64,000 bases of DNA from Cyanobacteriota bacterium (lineage in GTDB: Bacteria; Cyanobacteriota; Cyanobacteriia; Thermostichales; Thermostichaceae), in contig JANRIL010000011.1 of the NCBI GenBank assembly GCA_033764955.1, positions 16,896 to 80,895 on the forward strand, written 5' to 3'. The notes under the pieces are model-generated. The model saw only the letters and a list, made by a program, of their open reading frames with translations. It had not been told where the DNA came from and did no database searches. The number at the start of each line of letters is the position of its first letter. Position 1 is the first letter of the stretch. A program made the translations under genes and the position numbers. Shown piece by piece: positions 42,546 through 62,973 of the stretch.

Positions 42546-42547
42546 GA

Positions 42548-45973: not shown

Positions 45974-45981
45974 GGAACCCC

Positions 45982-46554
45982 CTAAATCTCGTAGCAAATC
46001 TGGCGGAGCATAGAAACGGATATCGGCAGTCCCTGTCTCAGCAGAATTTCCAGATGTTCTTCCACAGTCACGGGTGGATTGCATAACCGCTTTCTTACTG
46101 TTTCTACCACTTGAGCGATTTTGAATGGCTTCAAGTCTATGACAGAAGCAATAAACTCATCAGGGTGCTGTACCTCAATGTCGTAGGGAGCTAATGCCTG
46201 CTGTGGAAAGTCTTTGAGGTTGAAGGTGACAATCACATCCACTCCCCCTTGGATGGCAGCAGCAAGGACATGGCGATCCTCGGGATCCGGTAACTGTAGA
46301 GCAGGAATCAAGGATTCATAGCCTGTAATTAGACAGTCCCGAACATGACTATTCATTAAGTCCTTGGTGCGGGTGAGCTGCTCTAGTGTCAGGTCAGGGC
46401 GATCTTTGAGGACGTTCCGGATCCACTCCTCATGAATTTGATTTGTCCATTTGGCTCGGAAGAGATCAGTAAGGGCTAGCTGCATAAGAAGATCCCGCAG
46501 GGGAGCGGGATAAAGCACACAGGCATCATAGAGAGCTGTGTAGTTGGATGACAT
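45982..46554 (-). CDS. PIN-domain toxin (paired with an HTH antitoxin)
   Basis: ALYDACVLYPAPLRDLLMQLALTDLFRAKWTNQIHEEW..., a later acidic residue (DPEDRHVLAAAI) and FNLKDF are typical of PIN toxins that pair with excisionase-type HTH antitoxins. ATG at 46554. Confidence 0.7.
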   Translation of the reverse strand: MSSNYTALYDACVLYPAPLRDLLMQLALTDLFRAKWTNQIHEEWIRNVLKDRPDLTLEQLTRTKDLMNSHVRDCLITGYESLIPALQLPDPEDRHVLAAAIQGGVDVIVTFNLKDFPQQALAPYDIEVQHPDEFIASVIDLKPFKIAQVVETVRKRLCNPPVTVEEHLEILLRQGLPISVSMLRQICYEI

Positions 46555-46555
46555 G

Positions 46556-48702: not shown

Positions 48703-48737
48703 AATCCATGCTTTAGAGTGACAAAGTTTTTAGTGCT

Positions 48738-49154: not shown

Positions 49155-49398
49155 ATTTTGTATTCCATCCCTCTGAAAGCACTTGTTTATAGTCTGTAGA
49201 AAGATTTTCTTCTACAGAGACACAACCAATAAATCCGCTCTCTTTGAATTTCTGATAGGAACTGTCCTCAGCGTTTGCTTTCGATTGATCTACCTGCGGA
49301 TATCGCTTTTTCAGGATTTCAATAAAATCCATCAGCAATAGTTGAGCCTCTTCAGGCAAGGCTTGAATATCTTGTTGCATCTGTTCCAGGCTAGACAT
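49141..49398 (-). CDS. VapB-type antitoxin (DUF2281-like)
   Basis: MSSLEQMQQDIQALPEEAQLLLMDFIEILKKRY is a typical small antitoxin. It overlaps vapC by 14 nt, and its ATG shares one base with the stop of the truncated methyltransferase ORF (TAATG at 49396-49400). Confidence 0.65.
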   Translation of the reverse strand: MSSLEQMQQDIQALPEEAQLLLMDFIEILKKRYPQVDQSKANAEDSSYQKFKESGFIGCVSVEENLSTDYKQVLSEGWNTKYDHR

Positions 49399-52199
49399 TA
49401 TGCAGCACCTCCAACCATCGTTTTTTCGCGGGCAACTGTCCCGATCTTCATGATATGCACTAAACTCACCACCACTGCCGCTAATCCCGGCCATTTGTAA
49501 CGGCGGGTGGCGTTGTAAATCATGCCGCCATTGTTGCAAATAAACCGGAGGCCGGTGCTGCGAGTGTCGCCCTGAGCGATGGTGTTGGTCGCAATTAAAC
49601 CAACCGTGCCGCCCCAACGCAGCAATGTAAACGATCGCCTAAAGAAGTGCGCCACCAGATCCGCATTGCCGTGAGATTCGGGATGCACAATTTTCAACCA
49701 CTCCAGATACCCCTCAGGATGGGCGTTAATCGTCGTATTTTTCCCCGCAAACGGTGGATTGCCCACGATCGCATCAAACCCCGAATTTTCCCGCTCAAAC
49801 ACTTCAGGAAACTCTAATTCCCAGTTAAACGGCTGTACTGCCTTGGTTCCCGTTGTTAGCTTGGCAACAACTGATTGAATTTCAGATTCATCCACCAATC
49901 CCTTCTCATAGCCAATCAATTTACCGCCAAATTCCTCACGATATTTCTGCCGTTGTTTGGCATTGTCACCCGCAAAGAAAGAGGCGACTGCGACTTTTGC
50001 TGTTAATCGAGCCGGTTCTAAGGCGCGATCGACATCTTGCAATAACGCCTGTTTTGTCTCCGCATCCCCATCTGATCGCGTATCCGACGTTTGAATCTGC
50101 TGTCGATACGCCAGTGCCTTCGTTGCCGACTGCTTCATTAACAACTTGTGGTCTTCAAAAAACGTTGGCTCATAAGCTGCACTTGCCCCAAAGCTACCAA
50201 TCTCTGTTCTGGTCAGCCCCACCAGCGAATCACCGCACTTGAGCGCATGATCCAAAAACGTAAACGGCAAATCTTTTGCCAGCGTCACCAACCACAGCGA
50301 CAATCGCGCCAGGTTCACCGCAAACGGGTTCTTATCCACCCCATACAAACACCGCTGCGCCACCAATCGCCGCGCCACCACCACATCCTCCACCGTCTCC
50401 GGCAGATCCGCTGGCTTGCCGTGATAGTTCCAGGCTTCCACCAACTTGTCTGCCAACTGCCGACAGGCTTCCACCAAAAACGCCGCAGAACCCATCGCCA
50501 GATCGCACACCTTCAGATCCAACAACTGCTCTGGTGTAGGATGCTCGCCTAAATTCTTCAGCACAGGCTCCAGCGTCTTCTCCACGATCGGCTGCGTCAA
50601 CTTCCGAGGCGTGTAGTGAGACCCCGATCGCCGCCGTTCCTCTCCCGGTTGCAAAAACAGACTGCCTGCCGCTAACAAATTAGGAGTTCTGGACGAAACC
50701 CGACGACCAATGGCAGCAGCAATGTCTTCTGCCGTTTTTGCCTCCTTCAACTCCTTCAAGGCTGCCCCTTTCAGTTCACACTCTGCCGCTTTGAGAATGT
50801 TGACGCGATCGGCTGGCTTTGCCGCCAGGATCTTGTCTACATCCACCACCACATCTTTCGGACGAACGGCGATCGATCGTCCGTGGGCAATCTCCACCTC
50901 ATAGCCCATGATCGCCTCATAAACCGAGCCAATCTGCTCAACATCAAGGGCACGATAGGATAATCGCTCTCCATCCAACATCAGCAGCTTATCCAGCATT
51001 CGGTAAACCACCCCATCTGAGACGCGAGGGGCTTCAATTCTGCCGAAGGTGGCAAAGTGAGAAGCGATCGGGCGACCTTCTAAAAACGGGTACTCATCTG
51101 GGTCAAACAACTGCCCATGCCGCGCGGGAAGGTACTCCTCCGTCGGGCCACCTCCGTCATACACCAGACGAAACAGACTCAACAGCGTTGCCCATGCCCC
51201 ATACCGCTGATCCATCGTGTCTGGGTAGTTGCCTGCATCCTCTCGCAACTTCTCATACAGCCCCGACACCGCGTAGTTGCGCTGATAAACCTCATCATCC
51301 GGCATCAGCCCTTCATCTTCGGCATAGAGCAGGAACACCAGCCGCATCAGCGTGGTGATCAGCCCCCCATAGATATGCTGCGGGTCAGTTTCAGCTAACT
51401 CTCTGAGGATCTTTCCATTTACTGTTGCATCCGCCGCCTGAAACCCTTTCAGTAATTCCCACAGGGCATCCAAAACCTGTTCCGCCAGTTTGGTGGAGAC
51501 CTCGGCTTGATAGTGGCGGCTATCTTCCAGCAGTTGGGGCAACCGTTGCGCTTCTGGCACGTTAAAGAGTCGTTCGGATCCGAGTAGCAGATCCAAGGCC
51601 CCCAAAATCAGACGCCCCGACACCTCGGTCATGGCCTGCACTGGGAACGTCACATGACCGGATGATTCCCCATTGGGGGCAACCACCAAGCGGATCGCGG
51701 TGCCGTTAAACAGGATCCCTTGATAGACCTTGGTTTCTCGCAACAGCCGCTCAAACTTGGCTTGAGAACTGGCTTTCCATCCGTGAGCACTTGCAAAGGG
51801 ATCCTCATCGTCAAAGGGTTGCCCTGTAGGCAGAGTTTGGATGAGCAGGATCCAGGTATCCGCTTGCCCATCCGTCCCTTTCACGGCATAGGTGGGACTG
51901 AGAACCTCGCCATAATTGGGCAAAGCTACCGTTAATTCCTCAGGGGGATCCTTTAGGTCATCAGGCAGCCACCCCAGTACAGTTTGAGTGAAACCAGGAA
52001 AATCAGGGATCCAAGCACAGGGATCCCCTCGCAGCTCAGGCGTTGTGACCGCCAGGAGCTTTTCTTGGAGATCCACCAGTTTGCCTCGATCAATAATGGC
52101 CTGCGCTTTGATCAGAGCAGGGGGAGAGACCACCAGACCGACAGGTTGTAGTAGTCCTAGCCATTCTTTGTGGCGGTAGGTGTCGAGATCTGTGCTCAT
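49398..52199 (-). CDS. drmMI: N6-adenine DNA methyltransferase, DISARM DrmMI-like, N-terminal/catalytic fragment
   Basis: SAM motif VCDLAMGSAAFLVEA and catalytic IVGNPPFAGKNT (about 49735-49776). Then GLIATNTIAQGDTRSTGL...YKWPGLAAVVVSLVHI, after which the ORF ends in 13-14 unrelated residues. Confidence 0.8.
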   Translation of the reverse strand: MSTDLDTYRHKEWLGLLQPVGLVVSPPALIKAQAIIDRGKLVDLQEKLLAVTTPELRGDPCAWIPDFPGFTQTVLGWLPDDLKDPPEELTVALPNYGEVLSPTYAVKGTDGQADTWILLIQTLPTGQPFDDEDPFASAHGWKASSQAKFERLLRETKVYQGILFNGTAIRLVVAPNGESSGHVTFPVQAMTEVSGRLILGALDLLLGSERLFNVPEAQRLPQLLEDSRHYQAEVSTKLAEQVLDALWELLKGFQAADATVNGKILRELAETDPQHIYGGLITTLMRLVFLLYAEDEGLMPDDEVYQRNYAVSGLYEKLREDAGNYPDTMDQRYGAWATLLSLFRLVYDGGGPTEEYLPARHGQLFDPDEYPFLEGRPIASHFATFGRIEAPRVSDGVVYRMLDKLLMLDGERLSYRALDVEQIGSVYEAIMGYEVEIAHGRSIAVRPKDVVVDVDKILAAKPADRVNILKAAECELKGAALKELKEAKTAEDIAAAIGRRVSSRTPNLLAAGSLFLQPGEERRRSGSHYTPRKLTQPIVEKTLEPVLKNLGEHPTPEQLLDLKVCDLAMGSAAFLVEACRQLADKLVEAWNYHGKPADLPETVEDVVVARRLVAQRCLYGVDKNPFAVNLARLSLWLVTLAKDLPFTFLDHALKCGDSLVGLTRTEIGSFGASAAYEPTFFEDHKLLMKQSATKALAYRQQIQTSDTRSDGDAETKQALLQDVDRALEPARLTAKVAVASFFAGDNAKQRQKYREEFGGKLIGYEKGLVDESEIQSVVAKLTTGTKAVQPFNWELEFPEVFERENSGFDAIVGNPPFAGKNTTINAHPEGYLEWLKIVHPESHGNADLVAHFFRRSFTLLRWGGTVGLIATNTIAQGDTRSTGLRFICNNGGMIYNATRRYKWPGLAAVVVSLVHIMKIGTVAREKTMVGGAA

Positions 52200-52211
52200 G
52201 ACAGGGATCCT

Positions 52212-55200
52212 CTAAAGTTGACCCGCTAAAAGGACAGTGTAATGCCAACCCTGGGTTTTAATTTCAGGTGCTAGTTGTTTATAATATTTCTCTGGAGTTA
52301 TTTCCACACTTACGGGATAGCGATAGATATTACTAACTCGAATCTGTGATTGATCATTGCCATATAAATCTGCTTGCAAGTACCCGATTATTCGTTGTCC
52401 ATGGAGTACTTGTCTTCTATTTTTGATGACCACAGAATCGTTAATTCTTACATGAGTTCTCAAATAATCTTGGAGTCCATCATTGTATTGCTCCTTAAAA
52501 CCAGGCCAGGAAATAAAAACTTCATCAGGGGATCCTTCTAGCCTTAGTACTTGCTGATTTATCCCTTGGAATGCTTGTTTCTTTGACCATGCCTTTTCCC
52601 GTGGCCCCCAGTCAAAGTAAAGCTCATTTTTAGCACGAGTCACGGCAACATAATAAAGTCGAGCCTCTTCGGCTGCTGAGTCTAGAATATTATTTCCATG
52701 ACCCTCAAAATTATCTCCATCATCCTTATCCATAAAGGGAAAAGTTGTGATCGAACTAGGAACGTAAACGACATCAAATTCTAGACCCTTGACTTTGTGA
52801 ATGGTGGAAATGGTGATCCCAGGATCCCGATTCGATAGAGATTGAGATAGTCGGGTAAAATCACTAGTTTTTAAATCCTGAATCATCGCCAGATGTTGGC
52901 TTAAAGTGCTATAACTTTCATATTCGACGAACGTAAGTGACCTCAGTTGCTCAATAGACTCAATTCCGTAATTTACATCGGCAAGAACAAGCTGCCGGTA
53001 TTGCTCAAGTAACTCATCCCAAATTGAAGATGTAAGTCCGGGATCAGGCTCTTGAGAAAGATAGGTTTGGCACAGATCTATCCATTCTCCAATCTCTCGT
53101 ACTTGAGCTAGTTTAAGATTATTATTGCTTTGGATCCGAAGTGGTTTAACATTACTATTTTGCAATAAATTATAGAATTGAAAAACTTCGCTATTAGTCC
53201 TGCATAATACAGCCATTGATTTAGGGTGCTCAATGTTCACACAATTATAGGCCATAACTTCTTGGGCCAAATTGACCAGTCGTGGACACTTAGGATCCAC
53301 ATCTTCAATTATCTGATGATCTATGATTCCATTTTCATCGCGATAGGCTTGAAGCGTGATATTGGCTTTAACTCGATTAGGAATTAGGTTGGTAGCAAGC
53401 ACTTGGGATCGCTGAATAATATCGAAAGTGGAGCGATAATTTACCAGCAGGTTAATCACATCACTTTGATAGTCAATCCGGAAATCTTGTAAGTATTGAT
53501 TAGCATGAAGGCGGTCGCCGCGCTTGCGAGTCCAAAGCAAAATATCTTGGTCATCATCCCCAATAACAACAACACCTGCCCCGCTACCTTGGTAAAGAGC
53601 CAAGATTACTTTATAGAAATCCTCGTTCATATCTTGGAACTCATCAACTAAGATGGCTTTATAATTCGCTGAGACCCTATTTCTAAGAGCTTCATCTGTC
53701 TGCATTGCTAGAGCAAAATTATGAAGAGTTACTTTGAGATCATTATTCCTATCCCTTACATCACTCAAACTCTTGAGCGCAAAACTATGAAAGGTATAAA
53801 CCTGCATCCGGCGAACAAAGGATCCATAGCCTAGTTGTTTGAAGAGATCCCGTACTCGCTTTTTGATTTCGTACACAACAGCACGATTAAAAGCCAAGAC
53901 TAGAATTTCATGAGGCTGAAGTCCTTGACGGTAAATCAAGTCAGCACATCGCATCATCAGGACATGAGTTTTGCCTGCTCCAGGGCCTGCATTGACTAAC
54001 AGATTTTGGTTATAGGGATGCTCACATACGTCCTTTTGTTGAGGATTAAGGCACTCTTTTGCCTGGTGAATAGCCTCTTCTCTCACTCTGCCTTGGATTT
54101 GTTTCAGTGCTGGATTGACTTCGAGAATATCATCATCGATTTCCCCAATAGTAGAATCAATCACTTTCTCTAGAGCAGTTAAAGAATCTGCTTCAAAATA
54201 GCGATCTATATAACCTGCCCGCAAGGAATCCGGTAGATAAGCATAAAGTTCCATAGCTTGGGCTCGCCGCAAAGCCATATTGTTAAGATCGTCGATAGTC
54301 TTTATCATTTTCTGATCTAACGGATGCATTTGCTCACGATCAGTTTCGATTTGATCTGGCTTGAGAATTTCTAGGATATAGCTAAAGGTTGTAATCTCAT
54401 TTGAAGCAGAGTAGATTCCTAGATTACTTATAAGCTTGATTGCAGATTGCAAGGGTTTTATCTTGACAGCTTTAGGGCAACACTTTAATAATTCATCAAG
54501 AGTCAAGTCTATTTCGTTTTGATTGGCAGGTTCTTTGTTGAGTATGGTGAGTAAAGCTTGGCTAATTTCAAGAATTAGCTTCGCTTTCTCAATCCACTTT
54601 GGAGTAAGATGATATGAGTAAAAGATAGTTTGATTGTCACTAATATTCTCATCAAAGCGAATCAAGATATCTCGCAATAATTTAACGACACTCCTGACAA
54701 CTCTTTTTTGTGCGTCCTTAATCTTCCTTTCAGACCAAGTTGCTGTCATAGATTCTTGTTGAAGATCTGCAGAAAGATCAGAAATTAGATCGTCCCAGTA
54801 AAGTCTTGGTTGCTTAGCTTTTTGATTAACAATATTCAGGATTTTCCTTAGCCACTTGAACTGCTGTTCTTGCATATCGTGATAGTGACCCTTTTTGAAC
54901 TGGATCTTGCGATTAATCTTTAGTGCCCCAACCTGACTTAGCTTCAAGATTCCTGTCCATACTTGATCCATTTGCCTCAACTGAGAGTGCCTCCACAAGT
55001 TATCAAGACTAAGATCTACCGTGGTCCACTTGTCGTTTGTGGTTCTTTCATCATTGGATTCAGTTCCTAGATCTATTGGTTCCCTTGAACTAGAAGTTAT
55101 AGTTGTTTGTATTCCCGTTAGTTGGCTTATAGGCAAAGATGTAGATCGTTGATCAGCCAATGACTGCCCGAAAAAGAAGCCTAAAACTCCTTTGGCAACA

Positions 55201-58200
55201 TTCATGATTACTTGAGAGATGGAAGAGGCTAAAGATCTAGAGTCTTTCTGATTTTCTGATGGATCGATTTTTGTTAAAGCTGTGGAGAACTCTGGAATTG
55301 AAATATCTGAATTGGCAAAATCAATCTCAGGTACAGGAACTCCACTGATAGTAAAACTGTTTGATTCAAACAAGCTTAGTAAAGCTCTTGCAACTGTAGC
55401 AGTCAGATCAGATCCCTGACTATATTGTTTCAAATTATCGGCTTTTAATTCTACTTTGAGTAATCCTGGCAAATAAGCACAAATTGTTAATCGCTCTGAA
55501 TACTCTAACCAAAATAAATATCGCCTCAGAGCATCTTCTTTAAAACTTCCAAATTCATCTATAGGGATAATAGCAATAGGATTCTCACCTTGAATTAAGG
55601 GTCTGGCTTCTGCAACAATCTCTATCCAAAGTTCTCGCAACTGAGGCACGGTGATCCGGTTTAGTTGAATCAAGGATTGTGTAGTGTCAAAGTCACCAGG
55701 TGCAAATAGTAGCTTTCCTTGAACATACTCTAAGCTAGCAGCTTCTCGACTTTCCTTGTTACGACCAATTCTACCGACTTCTTGCAAGTAATCTTCTAAA
55801 TAATTTGGCGGTGACAAATGCAAGCACCAATGAATATGAGCGATATCCATACCCATGCCAAAGGCTTTAGTACAAACTAGTACTTTTATTTCGTGATCTA
55901 GAAAACTATGATAGAGTTCGATCCGCAGATCGGCAGATAATCCGGCATGGAAATAATCTACTTGACAATCTATTTCTTCTCTTTCATTTATTAACTTAAC
56001 TAGTTCTTCTGCATGCCGCCTACGCGTAACGAAAATAATGACACTGCTACGTGAGAGATCTGCAGATCGAATTATATTCTCGACGTAACCCAAACGAGGA
56101 GATAGGGATTCAGATTGAGCAGAAAAAGTGACTTCAACATTTTCAGCAGTTAGTTGAATGAAAGGCTGAATAGGATGTCGTATTTTCTCTGGGCGAAGGA
56201 CGTAGGTATTTTGATTTGCATCGATCTCCTGCTCTAGATCCTTACGAACAATCTCTGTGATAGTTGCAGAAAATAGCAAGACCGGAATCAACTCTCCATT
56301 AGGTTGATGTCGATAAAAATGTCGAATCTCTCGCGTAGCGAATAAATAGTCAGGTCGAAATTCAAAACCCCACTGACTTACACAATGCGCCTCATCAATG
56401 ACGATGTATTCAAAACCTTGATCAAACTCAAATCGTCGCTGAATAGCCTCTCGAAAACGTGGGATTCGAAACCGTTCTGGAGCGACAAATAAAAGTTTGA
56501 TGCGGTTATCAATAATCCCTTGATAAACTTCTGATGTCTGCCAGGGATCGCGATCTCCACTGAGATAATCAACTGATTGAATAAACCCTTTGCGCCACAA
56601 GGTATTCACTTGATCCGCCATCAAAGCTCGTAACGGTGAGATTACTAGGGTGAGGCGTTGGGTAAACGCACCGCGTAGTAGAGCTGGAATATGAAACAGT
56701 ACGGACTTACCTTCACCCGTTGGGAGCCTGACTAGTACATCTTGGGTACGGGTAATGATTGCCTCGATGGCTGGCTTTTGGGTTCCTTCTCGAAAGTCCA
56801 GGTAGCCCCAATGAGCTTGCAAAAACTGTCGATAGCTTTCGTAATCTGTCGGGGGATCCCGTCGCTCAATATCGCCTAGTATATTTCGTAAAGTTTCTAA
56901 CAGTCGCTCCGGTTGCTTGAGTTTTGCCAGAGGAATCTCCCGGATAAGAATTCTTTTTTCTTGCCCCAGGGAGAGGTGGCTGAGACGGCTATCCAAAATT
57001 ATTGGCACACATGAGGGATCCTTAAACTGAAAACGAGTCCATAGCCAGGGGCCCAAGTGACGCTCAATCGCGATAGTCATTGCTGAAGCAGAAATCTGCA
57101 CTGGTAAAAGGGTAGTTCTATCCCCTCCTCCCTGACGCTCACTCTGAAGTTCTTCATCCTCGTCTAGATTTGCCCCATCTCCCTCATATCCGTCTTCGGC
57201 TTCATTCAGTATTAAATCCGGATCATTCTCTTGCTGAGCTTGGTCGAGTAGCCACCACTCCTCTAATGGCAACGCTTCAATCAGGGGTAACACCTTGCAC
57301 CCTAAAGTGGCAGCCGCATCCAAAAACCGATCCACCTGGTCTATAGCCGATATCACTAACGGTTTGCTCCGCCGCCGTACTTTTTCAAAATGTCGTAGTA
57401 TCGACCCTCCCGATCGTTCAATTGTCAGTCCCAAAGTCGCTATTGCTTGTTCAATGGCTCTTGCTTCCCCCGCCTCATCCACCAGTAATAACAGCATCAC
57501 ATCGGGATCCGTCTGATAATGCACCGACAAAACCCGCAGCAGCAAATCATCCCAATAGCGAAGCCGATTACCAGAACCCGGTGATAGTCCTTCCCGAATT
57601 CCACCGGGATCCTTCCAGCGGGGCAATATCACCTCCCACTGACTGCTGTAGTTATGAGGTGTGACATCTTCAGACTGCTGGATCTTTTCAAATAAATCCG
57701 CCAGATCGGCTCCCAGCAGCCGCAAAGCCCAGGGAAACTGCCGCTCTTGTCGACCCCGCAGTGGGTCATACTCTAGCCAACAGTGGAGTGGTTTCTTATC
57801 TACTCCCCACTGGAATAAATCAACTCCTTCTGGAATGTTGAACAGCATCCGCCCTGCCAAATCAGACGTTTGGGAAATCAGGGATCCTAGTCCCTGCCTA
57901 ACTTTTTCCGTCGATAAGGGTTCTAGGTGTATCCTCTCAAAGATTCCTTCCTCTGGATACAGAGGGATAATGTCTTCTGGGATTGGCAGATTTATTGGCA
58001 AATCATGATAGGCTATTGCCCCTATAACTCCATCTCCTGATTCTCCAGCAGTGATTGGATTGTCTATAGCTTCGTAGAGTAACGAATCTAGCCCTTCCCT
58101 TAACCACATTGGAATCATCCGGAGCACCACTTGAACCTGTTGACGCTCTGCCTGACGCACCACTACTGCCACGGCTCGTAGATCCCGTCGCTCAGGATGA

Positions 58201-59693
58201 GCTTCCACCAACCGCCCCAATTTCACCGCGGATAAAGAGGGAGACCCTCGATGTACTACGCCAACGCGCCAAGCCCACTCTCGCCACTGCCGCCATTCCG
58301 GTATGACGAAATCCCCAGTTCTACGATACTCATTTGGCATTGAGGGAAAAATCTGTTTCTCTAACACCTCTGGGTGCTCATAGAGATAGTCAATCGGATC
58401 CTGAGGTTGTTCCAACCAGTGACAATAGTCTCGATCTGATAGAGTTAAGCACTTTACTTGCTCTTGGAAAAGCTTTAGAGCTGCCACCGCATCTGCATCT
58501 GCCTGATGTGCTCGTTCCGAAGTCAGCAAGGCATGGCGACTGTTCCAGGGAGTTAGGATCCAAGACATTAATAAGGTGTCCCAAACAGGGATCCCGCTGG
58601 CAAAATCACTGTTTAACTGCTCCAAAATCGGCAGATCCCATGCTAGGATATTGTGTCCCACCAGCCAACCTGGGTTATCTGATGCTCCAACTTTATGCAA
58701 TAGAGTGCGGATCTCGAGTAAATGGGATTGGATCTTAATTTCTACATCTGAATTATCTTGAGAGTTTGGCTGAAAATACTCTAAATGAGTCCCGGACTCA
58801 GTTGCCCAACCCAACTGAAAGATCCTTTGCCCATCACTTTCTAAATCCACCGAAACCGCTGATATCTCAAGCCGTTTCTGAAAACATTGCTTGATATCCA
58901 GATACCCTTGTTTCATCAGCTTAATTAACTCTTGTGAGCTAGCTTGCTGAGCACAAAATGTTTCTATTCTCTTGAATGATTGATGTTCCCAAACTTCCTG
59001 TAGTTGATTATAAATCTGAAATAAATCAGAAAGTTTTAACCCTTCAAAAAACTGAATAGAGCGATTATTGAGTTGAGCGTAACTCTCTCTCAGTAACTGC
59101 TGCTTCTGATTTTCATTGATCGCAAAGAAAGGAGAATTAGCTTTAGCACCCAGATATCTGTGCCAATCAGTAAAACTGGTGAGTTTTGGCTCAAACTCTA
59201 ATAGAAAATCACGTAACTGCGGATCCTCATCCAAACTCAGTCGTCGCTGCGGGGTTTGATAATGAGATTTTTTATCTTTTGTCCAAAGATGTATGTACCA
59301 TTCAGCCTGTAAAATCTTTAGTACCTCTTTTAATGTCCATCTTTGCATGGCCTGCAATCGATTTTCAGAGTAATTCTCCAGAGAGCCTTGTATATCTTCT
59401 TCAAGGATCCAAGAGATTGCTGATTGACGTATTTTCCTATTCTGGTGATCATGTGGTGTCACTCCAATGACAAAAAGACAACGTTGCCCACTGAGATCCT
59501 GACCACCTAAAATTCTCCGATCTTGTGATCCAGCATACGTAGTGATGTGTGTAAATAGGTCGTCGGTTAGATCTGGAGCAGAAATCACGCCGCAATCTTT
59601 CTTATTCCACTTACTTAAGTGTCCCACCCGCCCATAGCGGTAATAGAGATTTTTTAGGGTGGATACGTTAGATGAGAATGATGGGTTAGTCAC
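52212..59693 (-). CDS. 2,493-aa fusion protein: unknown N-domain, DEDDh 3'-5' exonuclease, RecQ-type helicase, UvrD/Rep-type helicase
   Basis: Exonuclease motifs: VDLESDG (58830-58850), GHNILAWDLPIL (about 58622-58670), AHQADADAV (about 58480-58511). RecQ-type motifs: LPTGEGKS (56702-56727), VIDEAHC (56383-56405), QEVGRIGRN (about 55745-55786). UvrD-type motifs: AGPGAGKTH (53961-53990), LVDEFQDMN (about 53616-53660), YVAVTRAK (52621-52670). GTG start. There are 12 nt between its stop and the drmMI ATG. Confidence 0.8.
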   Translation of the reverse strand: MTNPSFSSNVSTLKNLYYRYGRVGHLSKWNKKDCGVISAPDLTDDLFTHITTYAGSQDRRILGGQDLSGQRCLFVIGVTPHDHQNRKIRQSAISWILEEDIQGSLENYSENRLQAMQRWTLKEVLKILQAEWYIHLWTKDKKSHYQTPQRRLSLDEDPQLRDFLLEFEPKLTSFTDWHRYLGAKANSPFFAINENQKQQLLRESYAQLNNRSIQFFEGLKLSDLFQIYNQLQEVWEHQSFKRIETFCAQQASSQELIKLMKQGYLDIKQCFQKRLEISAVSVDLESDGQRIFQLGWATESGTHLEYFQPNSQDNSDVEIKIQSHLLEIRTLLHKVGASDNPGWLVGHNILAWDLPILEQLNSDFASGIPVWDTLLMSWILTPWNSRHALLTSERAHQADADAVAALKLFQEQVKCLTLSDRDYCHWLEQPQDPIDYLYEHPEVLEKQIFPSMPNEYRRTGDFVIPEWRQWREWAWRVGVVHRGSPSLSAVKLGRLVEAHPERRDLRAVAVVVRQAERQQVQVVLRMIPMWLREGLDSLLYEAIDNPITAGESGDGVIGAIAYHDLPINLPIPEDIIPLYPEEGIFERIHLEPLSTEKVRQGLGSLISQTSDLAGRMLFNIPEGVDLFQWGVDKKPLHCWLEYDPLRGRQERQFPWALRLLGADLADLFEKIQQSEDVTPHNYSSQWEVILPRWKDPGGIREGLSPGSGNRLRYWDDLLLRVLSVHYQTDPDVMLLLLVDEAGEARAIEQAIATLGLTIERSGGSILRHFEKVRRRSKPLVISAIDQVDRFLDAAATLGCKVLPLIEALPLEEWWLLDQAQQENDPDLILNEAEDGYEGDGANLDEDEELQSERQGGGDRTTLLPVQISASAMTIAIERHLGPWLWTRFQFKDPSCVPIILDSRLSHLSLGQEKRILIREIPLAKLKQPERLLETLRNILGDIERRDPPTDYESYRQFLQAHWGYLDFREGTQKPAIEAIITRTQDVLVRLPTGEGKSVLFHIPALLRGAFTQRLTLVISPLRALMADQVNTLWRKGFIQSVDYLSGDRDPWQTSEVYQGIIDNRIKLLFVAPERFRIPRFREAIQRRFEFDQGFEYIVIDEAHCVSQWGFEFRPDYLFATREIRHFYRHQPNGELIPVLLFSATITEIVRKDLEQEIDANQNTYVLRPEKIRHPIQPFIQLTAENVEVTFSAQSESLSPRLGYVENIIRSADLSRSSVIIFVTRRRHAEELVKLINEREEIDCQVDYFHAGLSADLRIELYHSFLDHEIKVLVCTKAFGMGMDIAHIHWCLHLSPPNYLEDYLQEVGRIGRNKESREAASLEYVQGKLLFAPGDFDTTQSLIQLNRITVPQLRELWIEIVAEARPLIQGENPIAIIPIDEFGSFKEDALRRYLFWLEYSERLTICAYLPGLLKVELKADNLKQYSQGSDLTATVARALLSLFESNSFTISGVPVPEIDFANSDISIPEFSTALTKIDPSENQKDSRSLASSISQVIMNVAKGVLGFFFGQSLADQRSTSLPISQLTGIQTTITSSSREPIDLGTESNDERTTNDKWTTVDLSLDNLWRHSQLRQMDQVWTGILKLSQVGALKINRKIQFKKGHYHDMQEQQFKWLRKILNIVNQKAKQPRLYWDDLISDLSADLQQESMTATWSERKIKDAQKRVVRSVVKLLRDILIRFDENISDNQTIFYSYHLTPKWIEKAKLILEISQALLTILNKEPANQNEIDLTLDELLKCCPKAVKIKPLQSAIKLISNLGIYSASNEITTFSYILEILKPDQIETDREQMHPLDQKMIKTIDDLNNMALRRAQAMELYAYLPDSLRAGYIDRYFEADSLTALEKVIDSTIGEIDDDILEVNPALKQIQGRVREEAIHQAKECLNPQQKDVCEHPYNQNLLVNAGPGAGKTHVLMMRCADLIYRQGLQPHEILVLAFNRAVVYEIKKRVRDLFKQLGYGSFVRRMQVYTFHSFALKSLSDVRDRNNDLKVTLHNFALAMQTDEALRNRVSANYKAILVDEFQDMNEDFYKVILALYQGSGAGVVVIGDDDQDILLWTRKRGDRLHANQYLQDFRIDYQSDVINLLVNYRSTFDIIQRSQVLATNLIPNRVKANITLQAYRDENGIIDHQIIEDVDPKCPRLVNLAQEVMAYNCVNIEHPKSMAVLCRTNSEVFQFYNLLQNSNVKPLRIQSNNNLKLAQVREIGEWIDLCQTYLSQEPDPGLTSSIWDELLEQYRQLVLADVNYGIESIEQLRSLTFVEYESYSTLSQHLAMIQDLKTSDFTRLSQSLSNRDPGITISTIHKVKGLEFDVVYVPSSITTFPFMDKDDGDNFEGHGNNILDSAAEEARLYYVAVTRAKNELYFDWGPREKAWSKKQAFQGINQQVLRLEGSPDEVFISWPGFKEQYNDGLQDYLRTHVRINDSVVIKNRRQVLHGQRIIGYLQADLYGNDQSQIRVSNIYRYPVSVEITPEKYYKQLAPEIKTQGWHYTVLLAGQL

Positions 59694-59751
59694 GACAGAA
59701 ATATACCAATGAGATCAAATGAGTGATTTTTACTTCAGCAAAATACATATG

Positions 59752-62700
59752 CTAATTAGAGATCGGCCAGAGATAAATTAACCCTACTGGTTCCACTCGT
59801 TCCGCCTTCACCCTATAAGTTTTCTGAATCCGATCTGGTTCTGTTTGGATCTCTTGCTCTAACTGGCTGAGGCGGATTTCCCAGTGACGGTGATCGGCGT
59901 TAATTTGTCGCAATTCATCCGCATTGAATAACCCCAGTTGGATCGTCTCAAATTTGCTCTTTTCTTTGAGGATCCGATCTCGTTGCTCTTGTAAAAGTTC
60001 TTTCATTTCCTTGGCTTCAGACTCTCCTCGCTGGTTGAGTTTACGCTGAGCGCGTTCACTCAGTTCCTTGGCCCGCCGCTCCAAATGAGGGATCAGATCC
60101 TGGACGTCTTGGGGGGCAACCCCTTTGAGCTTCTCCAGCACTGGGGGTGGCACTTCCCGTAGGCGAGGGCTGGCGAGGGAATCCTCTAAAATCTGCAAAA
60201 CATCCTTCTTTTCGCCCTCAGTAACAGGTCTTAAACGGCCCCGACCTCTGGCCTCAGGATCCACCCATTCAGCGGCCACAGTGATGATTTCATCATGCAA
60301 ACGAGCTGCCCGTTCCCCGTACAGCGATAACCGTCCCAAGATCACCACTCGAGGAATGGGATCCTCACTGCGACAGACACAGGCGCGGCTGAGTTCGTGG
60401 TGCAAAAATCCCTGGGAGAGGAACCGTCCCAATAGCCGTTGCACAATGCGGTGCTCTAAATGCAGATGCACCACCTCACCATCCAGGGATCCTGGATCTT
60501 TGAAGACTACCGGACGAATGGGGGCTTCTTTCCGCCAGTCCCAGAGTTTCTGGGTCTTCTGGCGTGGTTGCCTTAGACTGTCAAGAGTCATCGCCCAGGT
60601 GGGATCCGCACCGGCTTCTTGATCGAGAGCAGGCAACAGCCAACGGGAACGTTCATTGTCACCGATGGCTTCCTGGGCAGAGAGAGGCTTGAGGGGTTGG
60701 GATCCGAGTAGCTCCAATGAAACGGACAGAGCCTCTCGAAAATGGCGATCATCCAATCCTAACCATTGCTGCGAGTCACGAAGCATGGTTTCCAACTCCA
60801 CCTGTTGCTGTCGGAGTTTGTCCTGGCGAAGGCGAATGGCTTCCAGTTCTTCCCGAATTGCGCCGCGCCGCTCATCATCGTTGTCTTTGTCGGCCTGGTT
60901 TATAGCGGAGCTGAGACTATCAACCTCGGTTACTCGGATCCCTCGCTCCAACAACTTGGTGACGTTCTTCTCCACCACCGGGGAGAGGCTACCCAATTCT
61001 TCCTGGATCCGTTGGGTCTTTTGCACCAGCACATCCATCACCCTGTCTTCAGGGCGCTGGGGTAAGACGAAGTAATAGCAACGGACTTCAGTCTGTCGCT
61101 GGAGTTTGCGGTCAATCCGCCCATTGCGCTGTTCCATGCGGCTGGGGTTCCAGGGCACATCAAAGTGAAACAGATCTGCACAGTGATTTTGTAGGTTTAC
61201 CCCCTCACGGGCAGCGTCGGTGGCAATGAGAATCCGCAAGGGATGTTTGTGGGGATCCATGTTGAAGGCTTCTTTGATTAAGCGGCGATCCTCTTTACTC
61301 ATCCCGCCATGAAATGTACCAATCCGGTCATAATCACGGTCGGATCCGGCAATCAAAGAGCTTAACTGTTGTTCCAAATAGCGCTTGGTATCAGCGTATT
61401 CGGTGAAAATTAGTACCCGTGTAGGCATCCATGCTGCTCCTGGGGATCCCATCTTGGGGCAGAGGTTTTGACGGATCCAGTCGCCTAATTTTTTGACTTT
61501 GCTATCAGGTTGGTGGCGGCTTCGCTCAGCAATCTGGGTCATCTCTTCTAACAGTTCAAGTTCTTTTGAGGTGATGCCCTCGGTTCCGGAGCGGCTGGCC
61601 TTTTCCATCTGAGCCGTTTCTTCTGCAAAGACTTCCAGTTCATCAAGATCGGCTCGCTCGTCATCGGAGCCTGGAGATTCCCATAACAGGGGATAGGATT
61701 GCTGGGTTTCCGGGACTACTTTTTCTAACTGCTTTTGGATCCCGCGTCGGTGAACCCTCAAAGTGCAAGCAAACGCTTCGATAGAGGACATTAGCCGCTT
61801 TTGCAAAGAGGTGATCACCAACATGGACGTCGTTAGGGTGGAGCGGGGAGCTGATTTCAGCCGTTCCTCTCGGCAGGTTCTATACTCCTGCAGCAGTTGA
61901 GCCAGCGTTAACTCTGGGACATCATCCGGCAATCCATCAATCACTACGGGTACGACATGACGCAATGGAAAATCAGCGTTATTAATTTCTCGTAGATCCT
62001 GCTTAAGACGACGAACCATCACCGCATCCAGCAGTTTCTTGCTCCGTACAGGCACCCCTCGACAAAATCGCTGCGGATCCAAAATTTCTAAAAGCGCCGC
62101 AAAGCTATTGGAGTGTCCGTTGTGAGGGGTGGCAGACAAGAAGAGCCGATGTTCAAAGCGAGGAGCCAATTCCCGCACTGTGCGAGTGAGTTGGGAGTCA
62201 ATGGCATAGCGGGTTCCACTGGCGGGGGCAGCATTGTGAGCTTCGTCGAGGATGAGTAGGGATCCTGGGGCAAAGTCCTGCATCCAGTCTCGTAAGGGTG
62301 CAGCGTAGGTTTCATCCCGCAATAGTGCGTGGGAGATGATAAATCGATTGTGGGTTTTCCATGGGTTCATGCCGTAGCCCCTTTCTCGACGCTTGGCCGC
62401 CACAAAATCTCGGTCATAAACAATGAAGGTGAGCCCAAAGCGGCTCTCCATCTCATCTTTCCACTGATCCACCACTGAGGGTGGGCAAGAGATCACGACC
62501 CGCTTCACCTTCTGCCGCATCAGCATCTCTCGCAGGATCAGTCCAGCCTCTATGGTTTTGCCTAAGCCCACATCATCAGCGATGAACAGATTTACCCTTG
62601 GCATTTTCAAGGCTTTACGAAGGGGTTCTAGCTGGTAAGCTTTGACCTCAATCCCAGCTCGGTAAGGAGCTTGAAAAAGTTTGGGTTCAGTGGAAGTGAC

Positions 62701-62973
62701 ACAGTTCCACCTCAGAGCGTGCAGAAATGCAGAAAATTGGCGAGGTTGATCAAAGCCCCGTTGAGTGACCTGTTCCCAGGAAGAGGTGGCCAAGATCTGG
62801 GCATCAATTTCCCTTTGCCAGAATACATTTAGAGGCTCACCCTGAGCATCGTCTTCCAAACAAGCCAGCCTCACCTGGGTATCCCCTGTGGGGGATGGGA
62901 TAACCTCCTCAACGAGATATTGACGGGAGCGGATTCTAACTATCTGACCCAGTTCTGGAGAGATTGAGTGCAC
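59752..62973 (-). CDS. drmD: SNF2-family helicase, DISARM DrmD-like
   Basis: DDVGLGKTIEAG (about 62548-62583), LILDEAHNAA, ILIATDAAREGVNLQ, DVPWNPSRMEQRNGRIDR. GTG start. Confidence 0.8.
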   Translation of the reverse strand: MHSISPELGQIVRIRSRQYLVEEVIPSPTGDTQVRLACLEDDAQGEPLNVFWQREIDAQILATSSWEQVTQRGFDQPRQFSAFLHALRWNCVTSTEPKLFQAPYRAGIEVKAYQLEPLRKALKMPRVNLFIADDVGLGKTIEAGLILREMLMRQKVKRVVISCPPSVVDQWKDEMESRFGLTFIVYDRDFVAAKRRERGYGMNPWKTHNRFIISHALLRDETYAAPLRDWMQDFAPGSLLILDEAHNAAPASGTRYAIDSQLTRTVRELAPRFEHRLFLSATPHNGHSNSFAALLEILDPQRFCRGVPVRSKKLLDAVMVRRLKQDLREINNADFPLRHVVPVVIDGLPDDVPELTLAQLLQEYRTCREERLKSAPRSTLTTSMLVITSLQKRLMSSIEAFACTLRVHRRGIQKQLEKVVPETQQSYPLLWESPGSDDERADLDELEVFAEETAQMEKASRSGTEGITSKELELLEEMTQIAERSRHQPDSKVKKLGDWIRQNLCPKMGSPGAAWMPTRVLIFTEYADTKRYLEQQLSSLIAGSDRDYDRIGTFHGGMSKEDRRLIKEAFNMDPHKHPLRILIATDAAREGVNLQNHCADLFHFDVPWNPSRMEQRNGRIDRKLQRQTEVRCYYFVLPQRPEDRVMDVLVQKTQRIQEELGSLSPVVEKNVTKLLERGIRVTEVDSLSSAINQADKDNDDERRGAIREELEAIRLRQDKLRQQQVELETMLRDSQQWLGLDDRHFREALSVSLELLGSQPLKPLSAQEAIGDNERSRWLLPALDQEAGADPTWAMTLDSLRQPRQKTQKLWDWRKEAPIRPVVFKDPGSLDGEVVHLHLEHRIVQRLLGRFLSQGFLHHELSRACVCRSEDPIPRVVILGRLSLYGERAARLHDEIITVAAEWVDPEARGRGRLRPVTEGEKKDVLQILEDSLASPRLREVPPPVLEKLKGVAPQDVQDLIPHLERRAKELSERAQRKLNQRGESEAKEMKELLQEQRDRILKEKSKFETIQLGLFNADELRQINADHRHWEIRLSQLEQEIQTEPDRIQKTYRVKAERVEPVGLIYLWPISN

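What the first reader, a model, noticed from the sequence alone, without database searches (positions are those of the whole stretch)
52212..59693. Giant exonuclease-RecQ-UvrD fusion gene embedded inside a DISARM operon
A single uninterrupted 2,493-codon ORF lies between drmD (58 nt upstream) and drmMI (12 nt downstream), so it is almost certainly co-transcribed with them. By motif reading it joins three nucleic-acid engines that are normally separate proteins. The first is a DnaQ-like DEDDh exonuclease (DxE, GHN..D, Hx4D; roughly aa 280-405). The second is a RecQ-type SF2 helicase core (roughly aa 990-1320). The third is a UvrD/Rep-type SF1 helicase (roughly aa 1900-2360). About 270 N-terminal residues, two linkers of about 500 aa each, and about 90 C-terminal residues show no motif I can name. 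Canonical class-1 DISARM, as I know it, has no such gene. It could be a new accessory effector of DISARM, for example processive unwinding and degradation of unmethylated invader DNA. It could also be an independent single-gene defence nested in the operon.
Basis: partly seen in the sequence, partly recalled or inferred. Interest (0 to 1): 0.85.

Follow-up and report, generated by a model that had tools for sequence, protein, structure and literature searches.

The report
Giant exonuclease–RecQ–UvrD gene nested in DISARM
A real 2,493-codon gene fusing a DNA-end-chewing exonuclease with two DNA-unwinding motors sits inside a cyanobacterial DISARM anti-phage operon, but it looks like a separately acquired, mobile, probably defensive gene occupying a variable "cargo slot" rather than a part of DISARM.

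Summary
On the minus strand, 52212-59693 is one intact 2,493-codon ORF. It lies 58 nt after drmD and 12 nt before drmMI, in a complete class-1 DISARM locus.

Profile, conservation and fold evidence support a RecQ-type SF2 core, a UvrD/Rep-type SF1 helicase and a DEDDh exonuclease.

The protein belongs to a rare, deeply divergent family, with about 60 full-length clusters among 1.84 billion representative proteins. Some lineages encode it as two or three adjacent genes.

About 36 other loci carry the family, and none has DISARM. Neighbours vary, and roughly a third of the loci sit next to known defence genes: Druantia III, Azaca, type I/IIG R-M, CBASS and AbiE.

Six close cyanobacterial DISARM relatives all lack this gene. 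One has drmD directly followed by drmMI; the other five hold different cargo at that junction. The gene's GC3 is 0.37, against 0.50-0.59 for the DISARM genes.

Best reading: an autonomous, horizontally acquired, probably defensive nuclease-helicase nested in a DISARM insertion hotspot. A functional link to DISARM is not excluded, but I found no evidence for it.

The parts
52212..59693 (-). Whole giant ORF: 2,493 codons plus a stop, GTG start
   Evidence: Full-length collinear homologues are found in more than 30 independent assemblies.
59460..59636 (-). N-terminal cold-shock-like OB domain (aa ~20-78)
   Evidence: Foldseek hits to CspA (1mjc, TMt 0.62, rmsd 2.4) and YB1 cold-shock domains, and to phage CspD. 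Homologues P0013 and P0014 carry PF00313. The Rhodobacter split version is annotated 'cold shock domain-containing protein'.
58434..58871 (-). DEDDh (DnaQ-fold) 3'-5' exonuclease domain (aa ~275-420), with catalytic residues D283, E285, D353, H396 and D401
   Evidence: The catalytic residues are invariant. The PDB profile hits only DEDD exonucleases. Model pLDDT is 72-94.
57219..57581 (-). Conserved alpha/beta domain of unknown function (aa ~705-825) within the unassigned stretch aa 421-954
   Evidence: Model pLDDT is 75-87. Conservation is shown. There is no Pfam hit and no PDB sequence hit.
55734..56831 (-). RecQ-type SF2 helicase core (aa ~955-1320), with motif I PTGEGKS, motif II DEAH plus the aromatic loop CVSQWGFEFRPDY, and motif VI QEVGRIGR
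   Evidence: Pfam DEAD and Helicase_C. TIGR01389/TIGR00614 match the core only. The best PDB match is E. coli RecQ 1oyw at 8.8e-40, over chain residues 13-336.
55359..55733 (-). Helical plus winged-helix-like domain after the RecQ core (aa ~1321-1445). No Zn-finger cysteines.
   Evidence: Secondary structure of the model, pLDDT 70-89. W1395, L1396 and E1397 are invariant. No Pfam hit.
55026..55358 (-). Low-complexity, disordered linker (aa ~1446-1556). This is the point where other lineages split the protein into two genes.
   Evidence: pLDDT below 50. The alignment is gappy and variable here. Two-gene forms are seen in L005, L029 and L039.
54054..55025 (-). Three winged-helix-like units plus a helical domain preceding UvrD (aa ~1557-1880)
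   Evidence: Model pLDDT 70-88 with repeated H-H-E-E units. No meaningful Pfam hit: only three chance-level matches, all below their cutoffs.
52584..54053 (-). UvrD/Rep/PcrA-type SF1A helicase (aa ~1881-2370), with Walker A GPGAGKT, DEFQD, GDDDQDI, NYRS, TIHKVKGLEFD and VAVTRAK motifs
   Evidence: Pfam UvrD-helicase, AAA_19 and UvrD_C. Foldseek hits Rep, UvrD and PcrA at E about 1e-17. Motif residues are invariant.
52215..52544 (-). Conserved C-terminal beta-rich domain of unknown function (aa ~2384-2493)
   Evidence: Model pLDDT 64-87. Conservation is shown. No PDB or Pfam sequence match.
59694..59751 (-). 58-nt AT-rich spacer between the drmD stop and the giant ORF start. Cargo begins right after the conserved drmD end.
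   Evidence: No promoter- or terminator-like site is found here.
52200..52211 (-). 12-nt spacer between the giant ORF stop and the drmMI start
   Evidence: In L068 drmD and drmMI are also separated by a 12-nt gap.
59752..62973 (-). drmD (SNF2-like helicase), the context gene upstream
   Evidence: NF038317, 1166 bits. PADLOC DrmD, 1131 bits.
49398..52199 (-). drmMI N-terminal part (933 aa: MmeI_N and methyltransferase), the context gene downstream
   Evidence: It matches DrmMI profile positions 7-988.
47530..48702 (-). drmMI C-terminal part (390 aa, target-recognition domain)
   Evidence: It matches DrmMI profile positions 988-1335.
39850..46084 (-). drmA, drmB and drmC core genes of DISARM
   Evidence: NF038325 at 1209 bits, NF038324 at 569 bits and NF038319 at 184 bits.

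Best explanation
What is shown. The ORF encodes a real multi-enzyme protein made of two modules.
- Module A (aa 1-1445): a cold-shock ssDNA/RNA-binding domain, a DEDDh 3'-5' exonuclease, unassigned domains, a RecQ-type helicase core and a winged helix.
- Module B (aa 1557-2493): tandem winged helices, a UvrD-type helicase and a C-terminal beta domain.
- A disordered linker of about 110 aa joins the two modules.

What is inferred from comparative context. The gene is an autonomous, horizontally mobile gene that landed in the short drmD-drmMI intergenic space. That junction is an insertion hotspot in cyanobacterial class-1 DISARM operons. The gene is probably read through from the DISARM promoter, but it is not a DISARM subunit. 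Its sparse, patchy distribution, its frequent relocation and its neighbours make a stand-alone anti-phage or anti-plasmid role the most likely one.

Inferred mechanism (not tested). The cold-shock domain and winged helices capture ssDNA-containing ends, gaps or replication/recombination intermediates of invading DNA. The two 3'-5' motors unwind DNA and strip proteins from it. The DEDDh exonuclease digests the released 3' strand. The whole would act as a self-contained unwinding-and-degradation machine.
For: Identity of the domains:
- Pfam, NCBIfam and PADLOC hits.
- RecQ is the best PDB match, well separated from DEAD-box helicases.
- UvrD/Rep fold at E about 1e-17.
- Invariant DEDDh residues, DEDD-only PDB profile hits and exonuclease and cold-shock fold hits.
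- All helicase ATPase motifs are invariant.

Two-module design:
- Two-gene versions with a 4-nt ATGA overlap, split exactly at the disordered linker, occur in two clades only 31% identical to each other (L005/L029 and L039).
- A three-gene version is found on a Rhodobacter plasmid.

Autonomy:
- No DISARM gene flanks any of about 36 other loci.
- No neighbour is conserved across the family.
- The L006 and L027 giants are 90% identical but sit in different contexts.

Insertion hotspot. Six loci whose DrmD is 75-81% identical to the window's were examined, and all lack the giant gene:
- L068 has drmD, a 12-nt gap, then drmMI.
- L018 has a 560-aa unknown protein at the junction.
- L019 and L020 have a second DrmD plus a 491-aa protein.
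- L066 has a toxin-antitoxin pair.
- L067 has AAA_15/21 fragments plus an IS630 transposase.
- Cargo always starts right after the conserved drmD stop.

Foreign origin:
- GC3 is 0.37 against 0.50-0.59 for the DISARM genes.
- The genome's abundant GGGATCCC palindrome occurs at 0.27 per kb in the giant ORF against 1.56 per kb in the backbone (P = 7e-4).

Defence-island residence:
- Druantia III lies directly upstream in L004.
- DruE3 plus Azaca lie upstream in L014, and Azaca in L027.
- Type I R-M is found in L005 and L039, and an McrB-like protein in L009.
- CBASS, AbiE, type IIG and WYL proteins appear among the 121 nearest neighbours.
- IS elements, SMEK and DUF3883 flank the Rhodobacter copy.

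Rarity:
- The motif scan found 13 matching loci among 185,579 species genomes; 12 of them show giant-like helicase regions, one on a truncated contig.
- 133 representative clusters match among 1.84 billion proteins.
Against: - No experiment links any member of the family to phage defence. No paper on this architecture turned up in the searches.
- PADLOC has no dedicated model; the hits are only domain-level matches to DpdF, PsyrT and GajB.
- Several loci have ordinary neighbours: GST, NmrA and PAS in L016, a surface protein in L015, chorismate synthase in L003.
- RecQ, UvrD and DnaQ-type domains are classic repair modules. WYL regulators and an SSB gene near some copies would also fit a DNA-damage role.
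- Tight, co-directional packing with drmD and drmMI, and the absence of a terminator-like site at either junction, mean the gene is probably co-expressed with DISARM, so cooperation cannot be excluded.
- The exonuclease assignment rests on weak E-values.
- Two 3'-5' motors in one polypeptide have no worked-out precedent, so the mechanism is speculative.
Confidence: 0.6

Rival explanations
1. The giant protein is a genuine accessory effector of this DISARM system. It would work with DrmD and DrmAB to unwind and degrade unmethylated invader DNA, much as ARMADA II adds a UvrD-like ArmD to DISARM-like components.
For: - The gene is co-directional with its neighbours, with gaps of 58 and 12 nt and no terminator-like site at either junction.
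- ARMADA II, a DISARM-related system, needs a GajB/UvrD-like helicase, ArmD (PMC13463889; bioRxiv 10.1101/2025.09.15.676423).
- The giant gene lies directly downstream of an SNF2-type helicase gene in three settings: DrmD in the window, and ZacC in L014 and L027. It lies next to YprA-family DruE in L004 and L014.
Against: - 0 of about 36 other family loci have DrmA, B, C, D or MI.
- 0 of 6 close DISARM relatives have the gene, and the same slot holds unrelated cargo in five of them.
- GC3 is 0.37 against 0.50-0.59.
- L006, whose giant is 90% identical to the Azaca-linked L027 giant, lacks Azaca.
Confidence: 0.15
2. It is a DNA-repair or replication-restart enzyme, a bacterial WRN-like exonuclease-helicase with an added UvrD. 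It would have been carried around by horizontal transfer and would have no role in immunity.
For: - The domain repertoire is typical of repair: RecQ, UvrD and DnaQ-type exonuclease.
- WYL regulators, an SSB gene and a HIRAN protein lie near some copies.
- Some loci have housekeeping neighbours.
Against: - The distribution is extremely sparse and patchy across phyla, with 30-37% identity between clades.
- The gene relocates between close relatives.
- It recurs next to Druantia, Azaca, R-M, CBASS and AbiE and next to IS elements.
- Here it sits inside a defence operon.
Confidence: 0.15
3. The long ORF is an assembly or binning artefact, or a decaying pseudogene that happens to stay open.
For: - The exact sequence is known from a single metagenome-assembled contig.
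- There is a sharp compositional discontinuity with the flanks.
Against: - An artefact would need two chimeric joins, placed exactly in the drmD-drmMI intergenic space and in the correct orientation.
- All 2,493 codons are open and every family-invariant catalytic residue is retained.
- Collinear full-length homologues exist in isolate genomes, for example Limimaricola and Brevundimonas.
Confidence: 0.03
4. It serves the mobile DNA that carries it rather than the host, for example as a counter-defence or element-maintenance factor.
For: - It is flanked by IS elements on a Rhodobacter plasmid.
- The related ~1,700-aa RecQ-UvrD fusions are common on plasmids.
Against: - It is not found in phage genomes or viral contigs. 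Only short motif matches or plain RecQ hits turned up there.
- Most copies are chromosomal, with no recognisable element borders.
- No repeats flank the window copy.
Confidence: 0.05

Closest known systems
WRN (Werner syndrome protein) and other exonuclease-helicase fusions such as Staphylococcus DinG
   Same: An N-terminal DnaQ-fold 3'-5' exonuclease sits on the same chain as a 3'-5' RecQ-type helicase core. WRN helicase chains are among the PDB matches of the core, and DinG exonuclease is among the matches of the exonuclease profile.
   Different: The exonuclease here has the H-x4-D (DEDDh) signature. From my own knowledge, WRN has the RNase D-like DEDDy type. No RQC zinc or HRDC domains were detected. 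This protein also has an extra cold-shock domain, an extra UvrD motor and about 1,000 residues of unassigned domains. It is bacterial, rare and mobile.
GajB of Gabija and ArmD of ARMADA II (UvrD-like helicases in defence systems)
   Same: The UvrD module's best defence-database matches are GajB models (149 bits). Gabija GajB (8sm3) is among the fold hits. ArmD shows that a UvrD-like helicase can be an essential part of a DISARM-like system.
   Different: GajB works with the separate OLD-type nuclease GajA. ArmD carries a RelE-like domain and follows ArmABC in a fixed order. Here UvrD is fused to a RecQ-exonuclease module, and the family has no conserved partner genes.
DpdF and PsyrT (RecQ-like helicases of the Dpd and PsyrTA systems)
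   Same: These are the best PADLOC matches of the RecQ-type core (216 and 188 bits).
   Different: The matches cover the helicase core only. NCBIfam DpdF scores 173 bits against a cutoff of 550. No Dpd genes and no PsyrA antitoxin lie nearby.
RecBCD, AddAB and AdnAB two-motor helicase-nucleases
   Same: Two helicase motors are combined with a nuclease in one machine that processes DNA ends. AdnB, RecB and AddA are among the fold hits of the UvrD module.
   Different: Those complexes use PD-(D/E)xK nucleases, and RecBCD pairs motors of opposite polarity. Here both motors belong to 3'-5' families, the nuclease is DEDDh, and everything is on one chain.
Class-1 DISARM (drmD-drmMI-drmA-drmB-drmC)
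   Same: The gene lies inside such an operon, in the same orientation as its neighbours.
   Different: The published class-1 gene set has no such gene, and relatives of this operon lack it.
Cargo genes nested inside other restriction-type operons, for example PrrC inside a type I R-M locus (recalled from my own knowledge, not tested here)
   Same: An unrelated defence gene sits between the genes of a host restriction system and is probably co-transcribed with them.
   Different: The hotspot here is the drmD-drmMI junction of cyanobacterial DISARM. I found no description of it in the papers searched.

Membership tests
Class-1 DISARM locus (the context) | drmA helicase, drmB (DUF1998) and drmC (PLD), preceded by drmD (SNF2) and drmMI (N6-adenine methyltransferase) | tested here: met
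   NCBIfam equivalog models DrmD, DrmA, DrmB and DrmC all score above their cutoffs, and PADLOC matches DrmMI. The definition comes from bioRxiv 10.1101/2021.12.28.474362. drmMI is split into 933 and 390 aa.
DISARM component (the giant gene as a subunit) | Conserved co-occurrence with DISARM core genes across genomes | tested here: not met
   No DISARM genes are present in about 36 other loci of the family. The gene is absent from 6 closely related DISARM loci.
RecQ family helicase | SF2 core with DEAH and the RecQ aromatic-rich loop, with RecQ proteins as best matches | tested here: met
   The sequence reads DEAHCVSQWGFEFRPDY. The top PDB hits are E. coli RecQ at 8.8e-40, then RECQ5, BLM, RECQ1 and WRN; the best DEAD-box hit is only 7e-13.
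RecQ family helicase | Whole-protein score above the curated family cutoff, with RQC (zinc plus winged helix) and HRDC domains | tested here: not met
   TIGR00614 scores 190.9 against a cutoff of 219.8, and TIGR01389 scores 218 against 640. The matches stop at the end of the core. There is no RQC or HRDC Pfam hit, and no cysteine cluster follows motif VI.
UvrD/Rep/PcrA SF1A helicase | UvrD N- and C-terminal domains above Pfam cutoffs, all motifs present, and a matching fold | tested here: met
   PF00580 at 111 bits, PF13361 at 70 bits and PF13245 at 58 bits. Motif residues are invariant. Foldseek hits Rep, UvrD and PcrA at E about 1e-17. It is not an orthologue of UvrD, PcrA or Rep, because the equivalog scores are far below their cutoffs.
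DEDDh (DnaQ-like) 3'-5' exonuclease | ExoI D-x-E, ExoII D and ExoIII H-x4-D acidic/histidine residues, conserved | tested here: met
   D283, E285, D353, H396 and D401 are invariant in 15 sequences that are 23-36% identical.
DEDDh (DnaQ-like) 3'-5' exonuclease | Significant profile or fold match to known members | tested here: inconclusive
   There is no Pfam RNase_T hit. The PDB profile's best E-value is 8.7e-4, although every hit is a DEDD exonuclease. Foldseek with the whole 960-aa model gives Pol I exonuclease at E 0.018 and a phage RNase-H-like protein at E 7.8e-5.
DEDDh (DnaQ-like) 3'-5' exonuclease | Metal-dependent 3'-5' exonuclease activity | not testable with these tools
   This needs biochemistry.
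Cold-shock domain | Five-stranded OB fold matching CspA or YB1 | tested here: met
   Fold hits to CspA, YB1 and CspD with TMt 0.5-0.7 and rmsd 2.2-3.7. PF00313 is present in two homologues. The window sequence alone gives no Pfam hit.
Gabija, ARMADA II, Dpd or PsyrTA systems | Presence of the partner genes: GajA, ArmABC, the dpd cluster or PsyrA | tested here: not met
   Neither the window nor the neighbour survey shows these partners next to the giant gene.

The most novel reading that the evidence does not exclude
The giant protein is a portable 'degradosome' add-on that plugs into different helicase-based defence systems: DISARM via DrmD/DrmAB, Druantia III via DruE, and Azaca via ZacC. It would finish off the ssDNA or unwound intermediates those systems generate. 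Its recurrent position directly downstream of SNF2- or YprA-type helicase genes would then reflect functional coupling rather than chance residence in defence islands.
Probability: 0.12. Interest if true: 0.8.

Novelty: new variant of a known kind. Interest (0 to 1): 0.6.

Why it matters
If the family is defensive, it would be a new single-polypeptide nuclease-helicase immune effector with an unusual design: a cold-shock domain, a DEDDh exonuclease and two 3'-5' motors from different superfamilies. That design raises a clear mechanistic question, namely why two motors of the same polarity sit on one chain.

Independently of that, the comparison shows that the drmD-drmMI junction, and other junctions of cyanobacterial class-1 DISARM operons, are recurrent landing sites for unrelated cargo. 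This cargo includes toxin-antitoxin pairs, a second DrmD, unknown proteins and this giant gene. The pattern offers a practical way to find new defence genes, and it warns against reading every gene inside a defence operon as a subunit of that system.

Tried and rejected
- Pfam on the unassigned segments (aa 1-270, 420-700, 700-960, 1320-1450, 1555-1885, 2370-2493) gave nothing meaningful at E <= 1.
- Family profiles of aa 700-960 and of the C-terminal domain gave no credible PDB match.
- I searched for direct or inverted repeats shared by the two flanks of the gene, looking for insertion scars. None of 8 nt or longer was found.
- Promoter and terminator scans found no site at either junction, and overall counts were not above the shuffled controls. 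They neither support nor contradict co-transcription.
- I searched viral contigs and phage genomes for the family. Only short motif matches or plain RecQ hits turned up.
- Literature searches for an exonuclease-RecQ-UvrD fusion in defence returned nothing relevant.
- Azaca linkage was considered because ZacABC precedes the gene in two deeply divergent lineages. I rejected it as a general rule because a 90%-identical giant (L006) lacks it.
- HIP-type palindrome depletion separates the whole DISARM island from the backbone but does not separate the giant gene from the rest of the island (P = 0.14). Only GC3 does that.
- Limits: the locus searches relied on one peptide motif (VGHNI[LI]xWD), so they undersample the family. 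The pooled neighbour scan gives counts per family, not per locus.
Full report
**1. The observation**

The window has one uninterrupted ORF on the minus strand, 52212..59693. It has 2,493 codons and a GTG start. All neighbouring genes run in the same direction.
- Upstream, 59752-62973 is DrmD (NCBIfam NF038317, 1166 bits, cutoff 610).
- Downstream, 49398-52199 is the N-terminal 933 aa of DrmMI.
- DrmA, DrmB and DrmC follow at 42548-46084, 40644-42578 and 39850-40644. Each scores above its NCBIfam cutoff.

The gaps are 58 nt (AT-rich) and 12 nt. No promoter- or terminator-like site falls in either gap, and the scan as a whole is not above chance. The published class-1 DISARM gene set is drmD, drmMI, drmA, drmB and drmC, sometimes with drmMII. 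The extra gene is therefore real and non-canonical.

**2. What the protein is**

Helicases. Pfam places DEAD at aa 972-1147 and Helicase_C at aa 1212-1312. The UvrD-helicase match starts at aa 1882 (with AAA_19 alongside it) and the UvrD_C match ends at aa 2362.

The first helicase is of the RecQ type.
- It carries the RecQ signature DEAHCVSQWGFEFRPDY.
- Its best solved relatives are E. coli RecQ (8.8e-40), RECQ5, BLM, RECQ1 and WRN, far ahead of DEAD-box proteins.
- Only the core matches. The recQ_fam score is below its cutoff (190.9 against 219.8). No RQC or HRDC domain and no zinc cysteines were found.

The second helicase has every SF1A motif. Its model superposes on Rep, UvrD and PcrA at E about 1e-17.

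Exonuclease. It has no Pfam hit, but three lines of evidence agree.
- In an alignment of 15 family members only 23-36% identical to the window protein, D283, E285, G346-H347-N348, D353, H396, A398 and D401 are invariant.
- A profile of this segment hits only DnaQ-fold exonucleases in the PDB (best 8.7e-4; also DinG exonuclease, PolC exonuclease, T7 polymerase exonuclease and TREX2).
- The AlphaFold model of aa 1-960 is confident here (pLDDT 72-94). It matches Pol I 3'-5' exonuclease, oligoribonuclease and phage RNase-H-like exonucleases.

I regard the fold and the catalytic residues as well supported. The activity is untested.

Additional anatomy.
- Residues ~20-78 form a cold-shock-like OB domain. 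The evidence is CspA/YB1 fold hits, PF00313 in two homologues and the NCBI name of the Rhodobacter split gene.
- Homologues align from about residue 18, and one from residue 1. The long GTG start is therefore more plausible than the 2,416-aa public annotation.
- The rest comprises a conserved alpha/beta domain (aa ~705-825), a winged-helix-like domain after RecQ, a disordered linker (aa 1446-1553), three further winged-helix-like units, a helical domain and a C-terminal beta domain. None of these has a recognisable sequence relative.

**3. The family**

A word-seeded search found about 15 full-length relatives (2,250-2,776 aa), plus a shorter family of ~1,700-aa RecQ-UvrD fusions. An exhaustive phmmer search with aa 1-950 against 1.84 billion representatives found 133 clusters, of which about 60 are 2,200-2,870 aa long.

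Motif-based scans returned 13 loci from 185,579 species genomes and 41 from metagenomes. The hosts include Alphaproteobacteria, Smithella and a flavobacterium, as well as this cyanobacterium. The window protein is an orphan branch, 30-37% identical to everything else.

In two clades only 31% identical to each other (L005/L029 and L039), the protein is encoded by two genes. These overlap by ATGA, and the break falls exactly at the disordered linker. A Rhodobacter plasmid has a three-gene version. The giant is thus a fusion of modules that work together.

**4. Is it part of DISARM?**

Four observations say no.
- tblastn with all the window's DISARM proteins finds no DISARM operon next to any of about 36 other non-redundant family loci.
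- All-against-all comparison of neighbours finds no partner conserved across the family. Giants 90% identical to each other (L006 and L027) sit in different contexts.
- DISARM loci whose DrmD is 75-81% identical to the window's lack the gene. Trichocoleus (L068) has drmD, a 12-nt gap, then an intact 1,328-aa drmMI. Phormidium (L018) has a 560-aa unknown protein at the junction. Geitlerinema PCC 7407 and L020 have a second DrmD plus a 491-aa protein. L066 has a toxin-antitoxin pair. Synechococcus PCC 6312 has ATPase fragments and an IS630 transposase. In every case the cargo begins right after the conserved drmD stop.
- The gene is compositionally foreign. Its GC3 is 0.37 against 0.50-0.59 for the DISARM genes. 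It is also poor in the genome's hyper-abundant GGGATCCC palindrome.

The drmD-drmMI junction is therefore an insertion hotspot, and the giant gene is one of its alternative occupants.

**5. Is it a defence gene?**

This is inferred, not shown. The points in favour are as follows.
- The distribution is very sparse and patchy.
- The gene is mobile.
- It recurs next to known systems: Druantia III directly upstream in Limimaricola, DruE3 plus Azaca in L014 and Azaca in L027, type I R-M in L005 and L039/L040, and an McrB-like protein in L009.
- CBASS, AbiE, type IIG and WYL proteins appear among the 121 nearest neighbours.
- It is absent from phage genomes and viral contigs.

The points against are these. 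Several loci have ordinary neighbours. The domain set is classic repair machinery. No literature or PADLOC model covers the family.

**6. Mechanism (inferred)**

Both motor families translocate 3'-5', and DEDDh enzymes remove nucleotides from 3' ends; both statements rest on established knowledge of RecQ, UvrD and DnaQ-like enzymes. With a cold-shock domain and several winged helices, the simplest model is a self-contained machine. It would engage ssDNA-containing ends, gaps or replication/recombination intermediates of invading DNA, unwind them, and digest the freed 3' strand.

How it would spare host DNA is unknown. Co-transcription with DISARM probably supplies expression. Any cooperation with DISARM would be a bonus, not a requirement.

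**7. What keeps the accessory reading alive**

The DISARM-related ARMADA II system needs a UvrD-like ArmD. The giant gene follows an SNF2-type helicase gene in three settings: DrmD here, and ZacC in two lineages whose Azaca proteins are only 26-29% identical to each other. It also neighbours YprA-family DruE twice. I give functional coupling about 0.12-0.15.

**8. Verdict**

The domain reading is confirmed and extended.

The family is uncharacterised. It is best described as a new variant of the nuclease-helicase class of defence-island genes.

Interest is moderate to high. The architecture is unusual and testable, and the DISARM cargo slot is a useful by-product. No function has been demonstrated.

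Noticed in passing
window 47530-52199 (drmMI) with the insert at 48738-~49400; L067 18656-19347: drmMI is split into 933-aa and 390-aa ORFs exactly between the methyltransferase and the target-recognition domain (DrmMI profile position 988). The insert is a low-GC toxin-antitoxin pair, a DUF2281-like antitoxin plus a PIN toxin. The same pair sits at the same place in Synechococcus PCC 6312, so the arrangement is inherited. Intact relatives are 1,314-1,332 aa long.
   Followed up: partly
window 45982-47011: A second toxin-antitoxin-like pair (HTH_17 protein plus PIN_3 protein) lies between the drmMI C-terminal part and drmA. Its PIN ORF overlaps the annotated drmA start by about 100 nt.
   Followed up: no
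whole window; positions listed: The octamer palindrome GGGATCCC occurs 77 times in 64 kb, against 2.6 expected. The classic cyanobacterial HIP1 motif GCGATCGC occurs only twice. Density is 1.56 per kb in 1-39849, 0.64 per kb in the DISARM genes and 0.27 per kb in the giant ORF. The whole DISARM island therefore looks younger than the backbone.
   Followed up: partly
L018, L019, L020, L066, L067, L068 (drmD-drmMI junctions): In five of six related cyanobacterial class-1 DISARM loci, the short drmD-drmMI spacer holds different inserted genes: a 560-aa unknown protein, a second DrmD plus a 491-aa protein, toxin-antitoxin pairs, and ATPase fragments plus IS630. Several of these are uncharacterised and may be defence candidates.
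   Followed up: partly
L014 3714-17650; L027 2286-16414: Azaca genes zacA-zacB-zacC lie directly upstream of the giant gene in two lineages. Both the Azaca proteins (26-29% identical) and the giants (38% identical) are deeply diverged between them. Yet L006, whose giant is 90% identical to that of L027, has no Azaca.
   Followed up: partly
L007, L036, L037, L042, L044 (for example L037 2465-8760): Three genes recur near one clade of giant genes: a WYL/WCX regulator, a ~220-260-aa protein with no Pfam match, and an 1,115-aa RNase_H_2 plus AAA_11/AAA_12 helicase. In L037 the regulator and two small genes are co-directional with the giant gene and immediately upstream of it.
   Followed up: no
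window 39800-62973: The plus-strand GC skew flips inside the DISARM operon at the toxin-antitoxin insert. It is negative over drmD to the drmMI N-terminal part, and positive over the drmMI C-terminal part to drmC. The DrmMI N-terminal part is 82-85% identical to relatives, while the C-terminal part is only 63-75% identical. This hints at a mosaic operon or a swapped target-recognition domain.
   Followed up: no
L069 9825-17226 (Rhodobacter sp. CZR27 plasmid): A three-gene version of the family is present: a 551-aa cold-shock-domain protein, a 135-aa protein and a 1,775-aa UvrD-domain protein. It is flanked by IS5, IS110 and IS21 elements, with SMEK and DUF3883 genes nearby.
   Followed up: no
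window 49141-49617: The mechanically listed 158-aa ORF overlapping the end of the drmMI N-terminal part is mostly an alternative-frame shadow of drmMI. Its N-terminal 72 aa match the drmMI DNA of L019 out of frame. The real antitoxin probably starts near 49395.
   Followed up: partly
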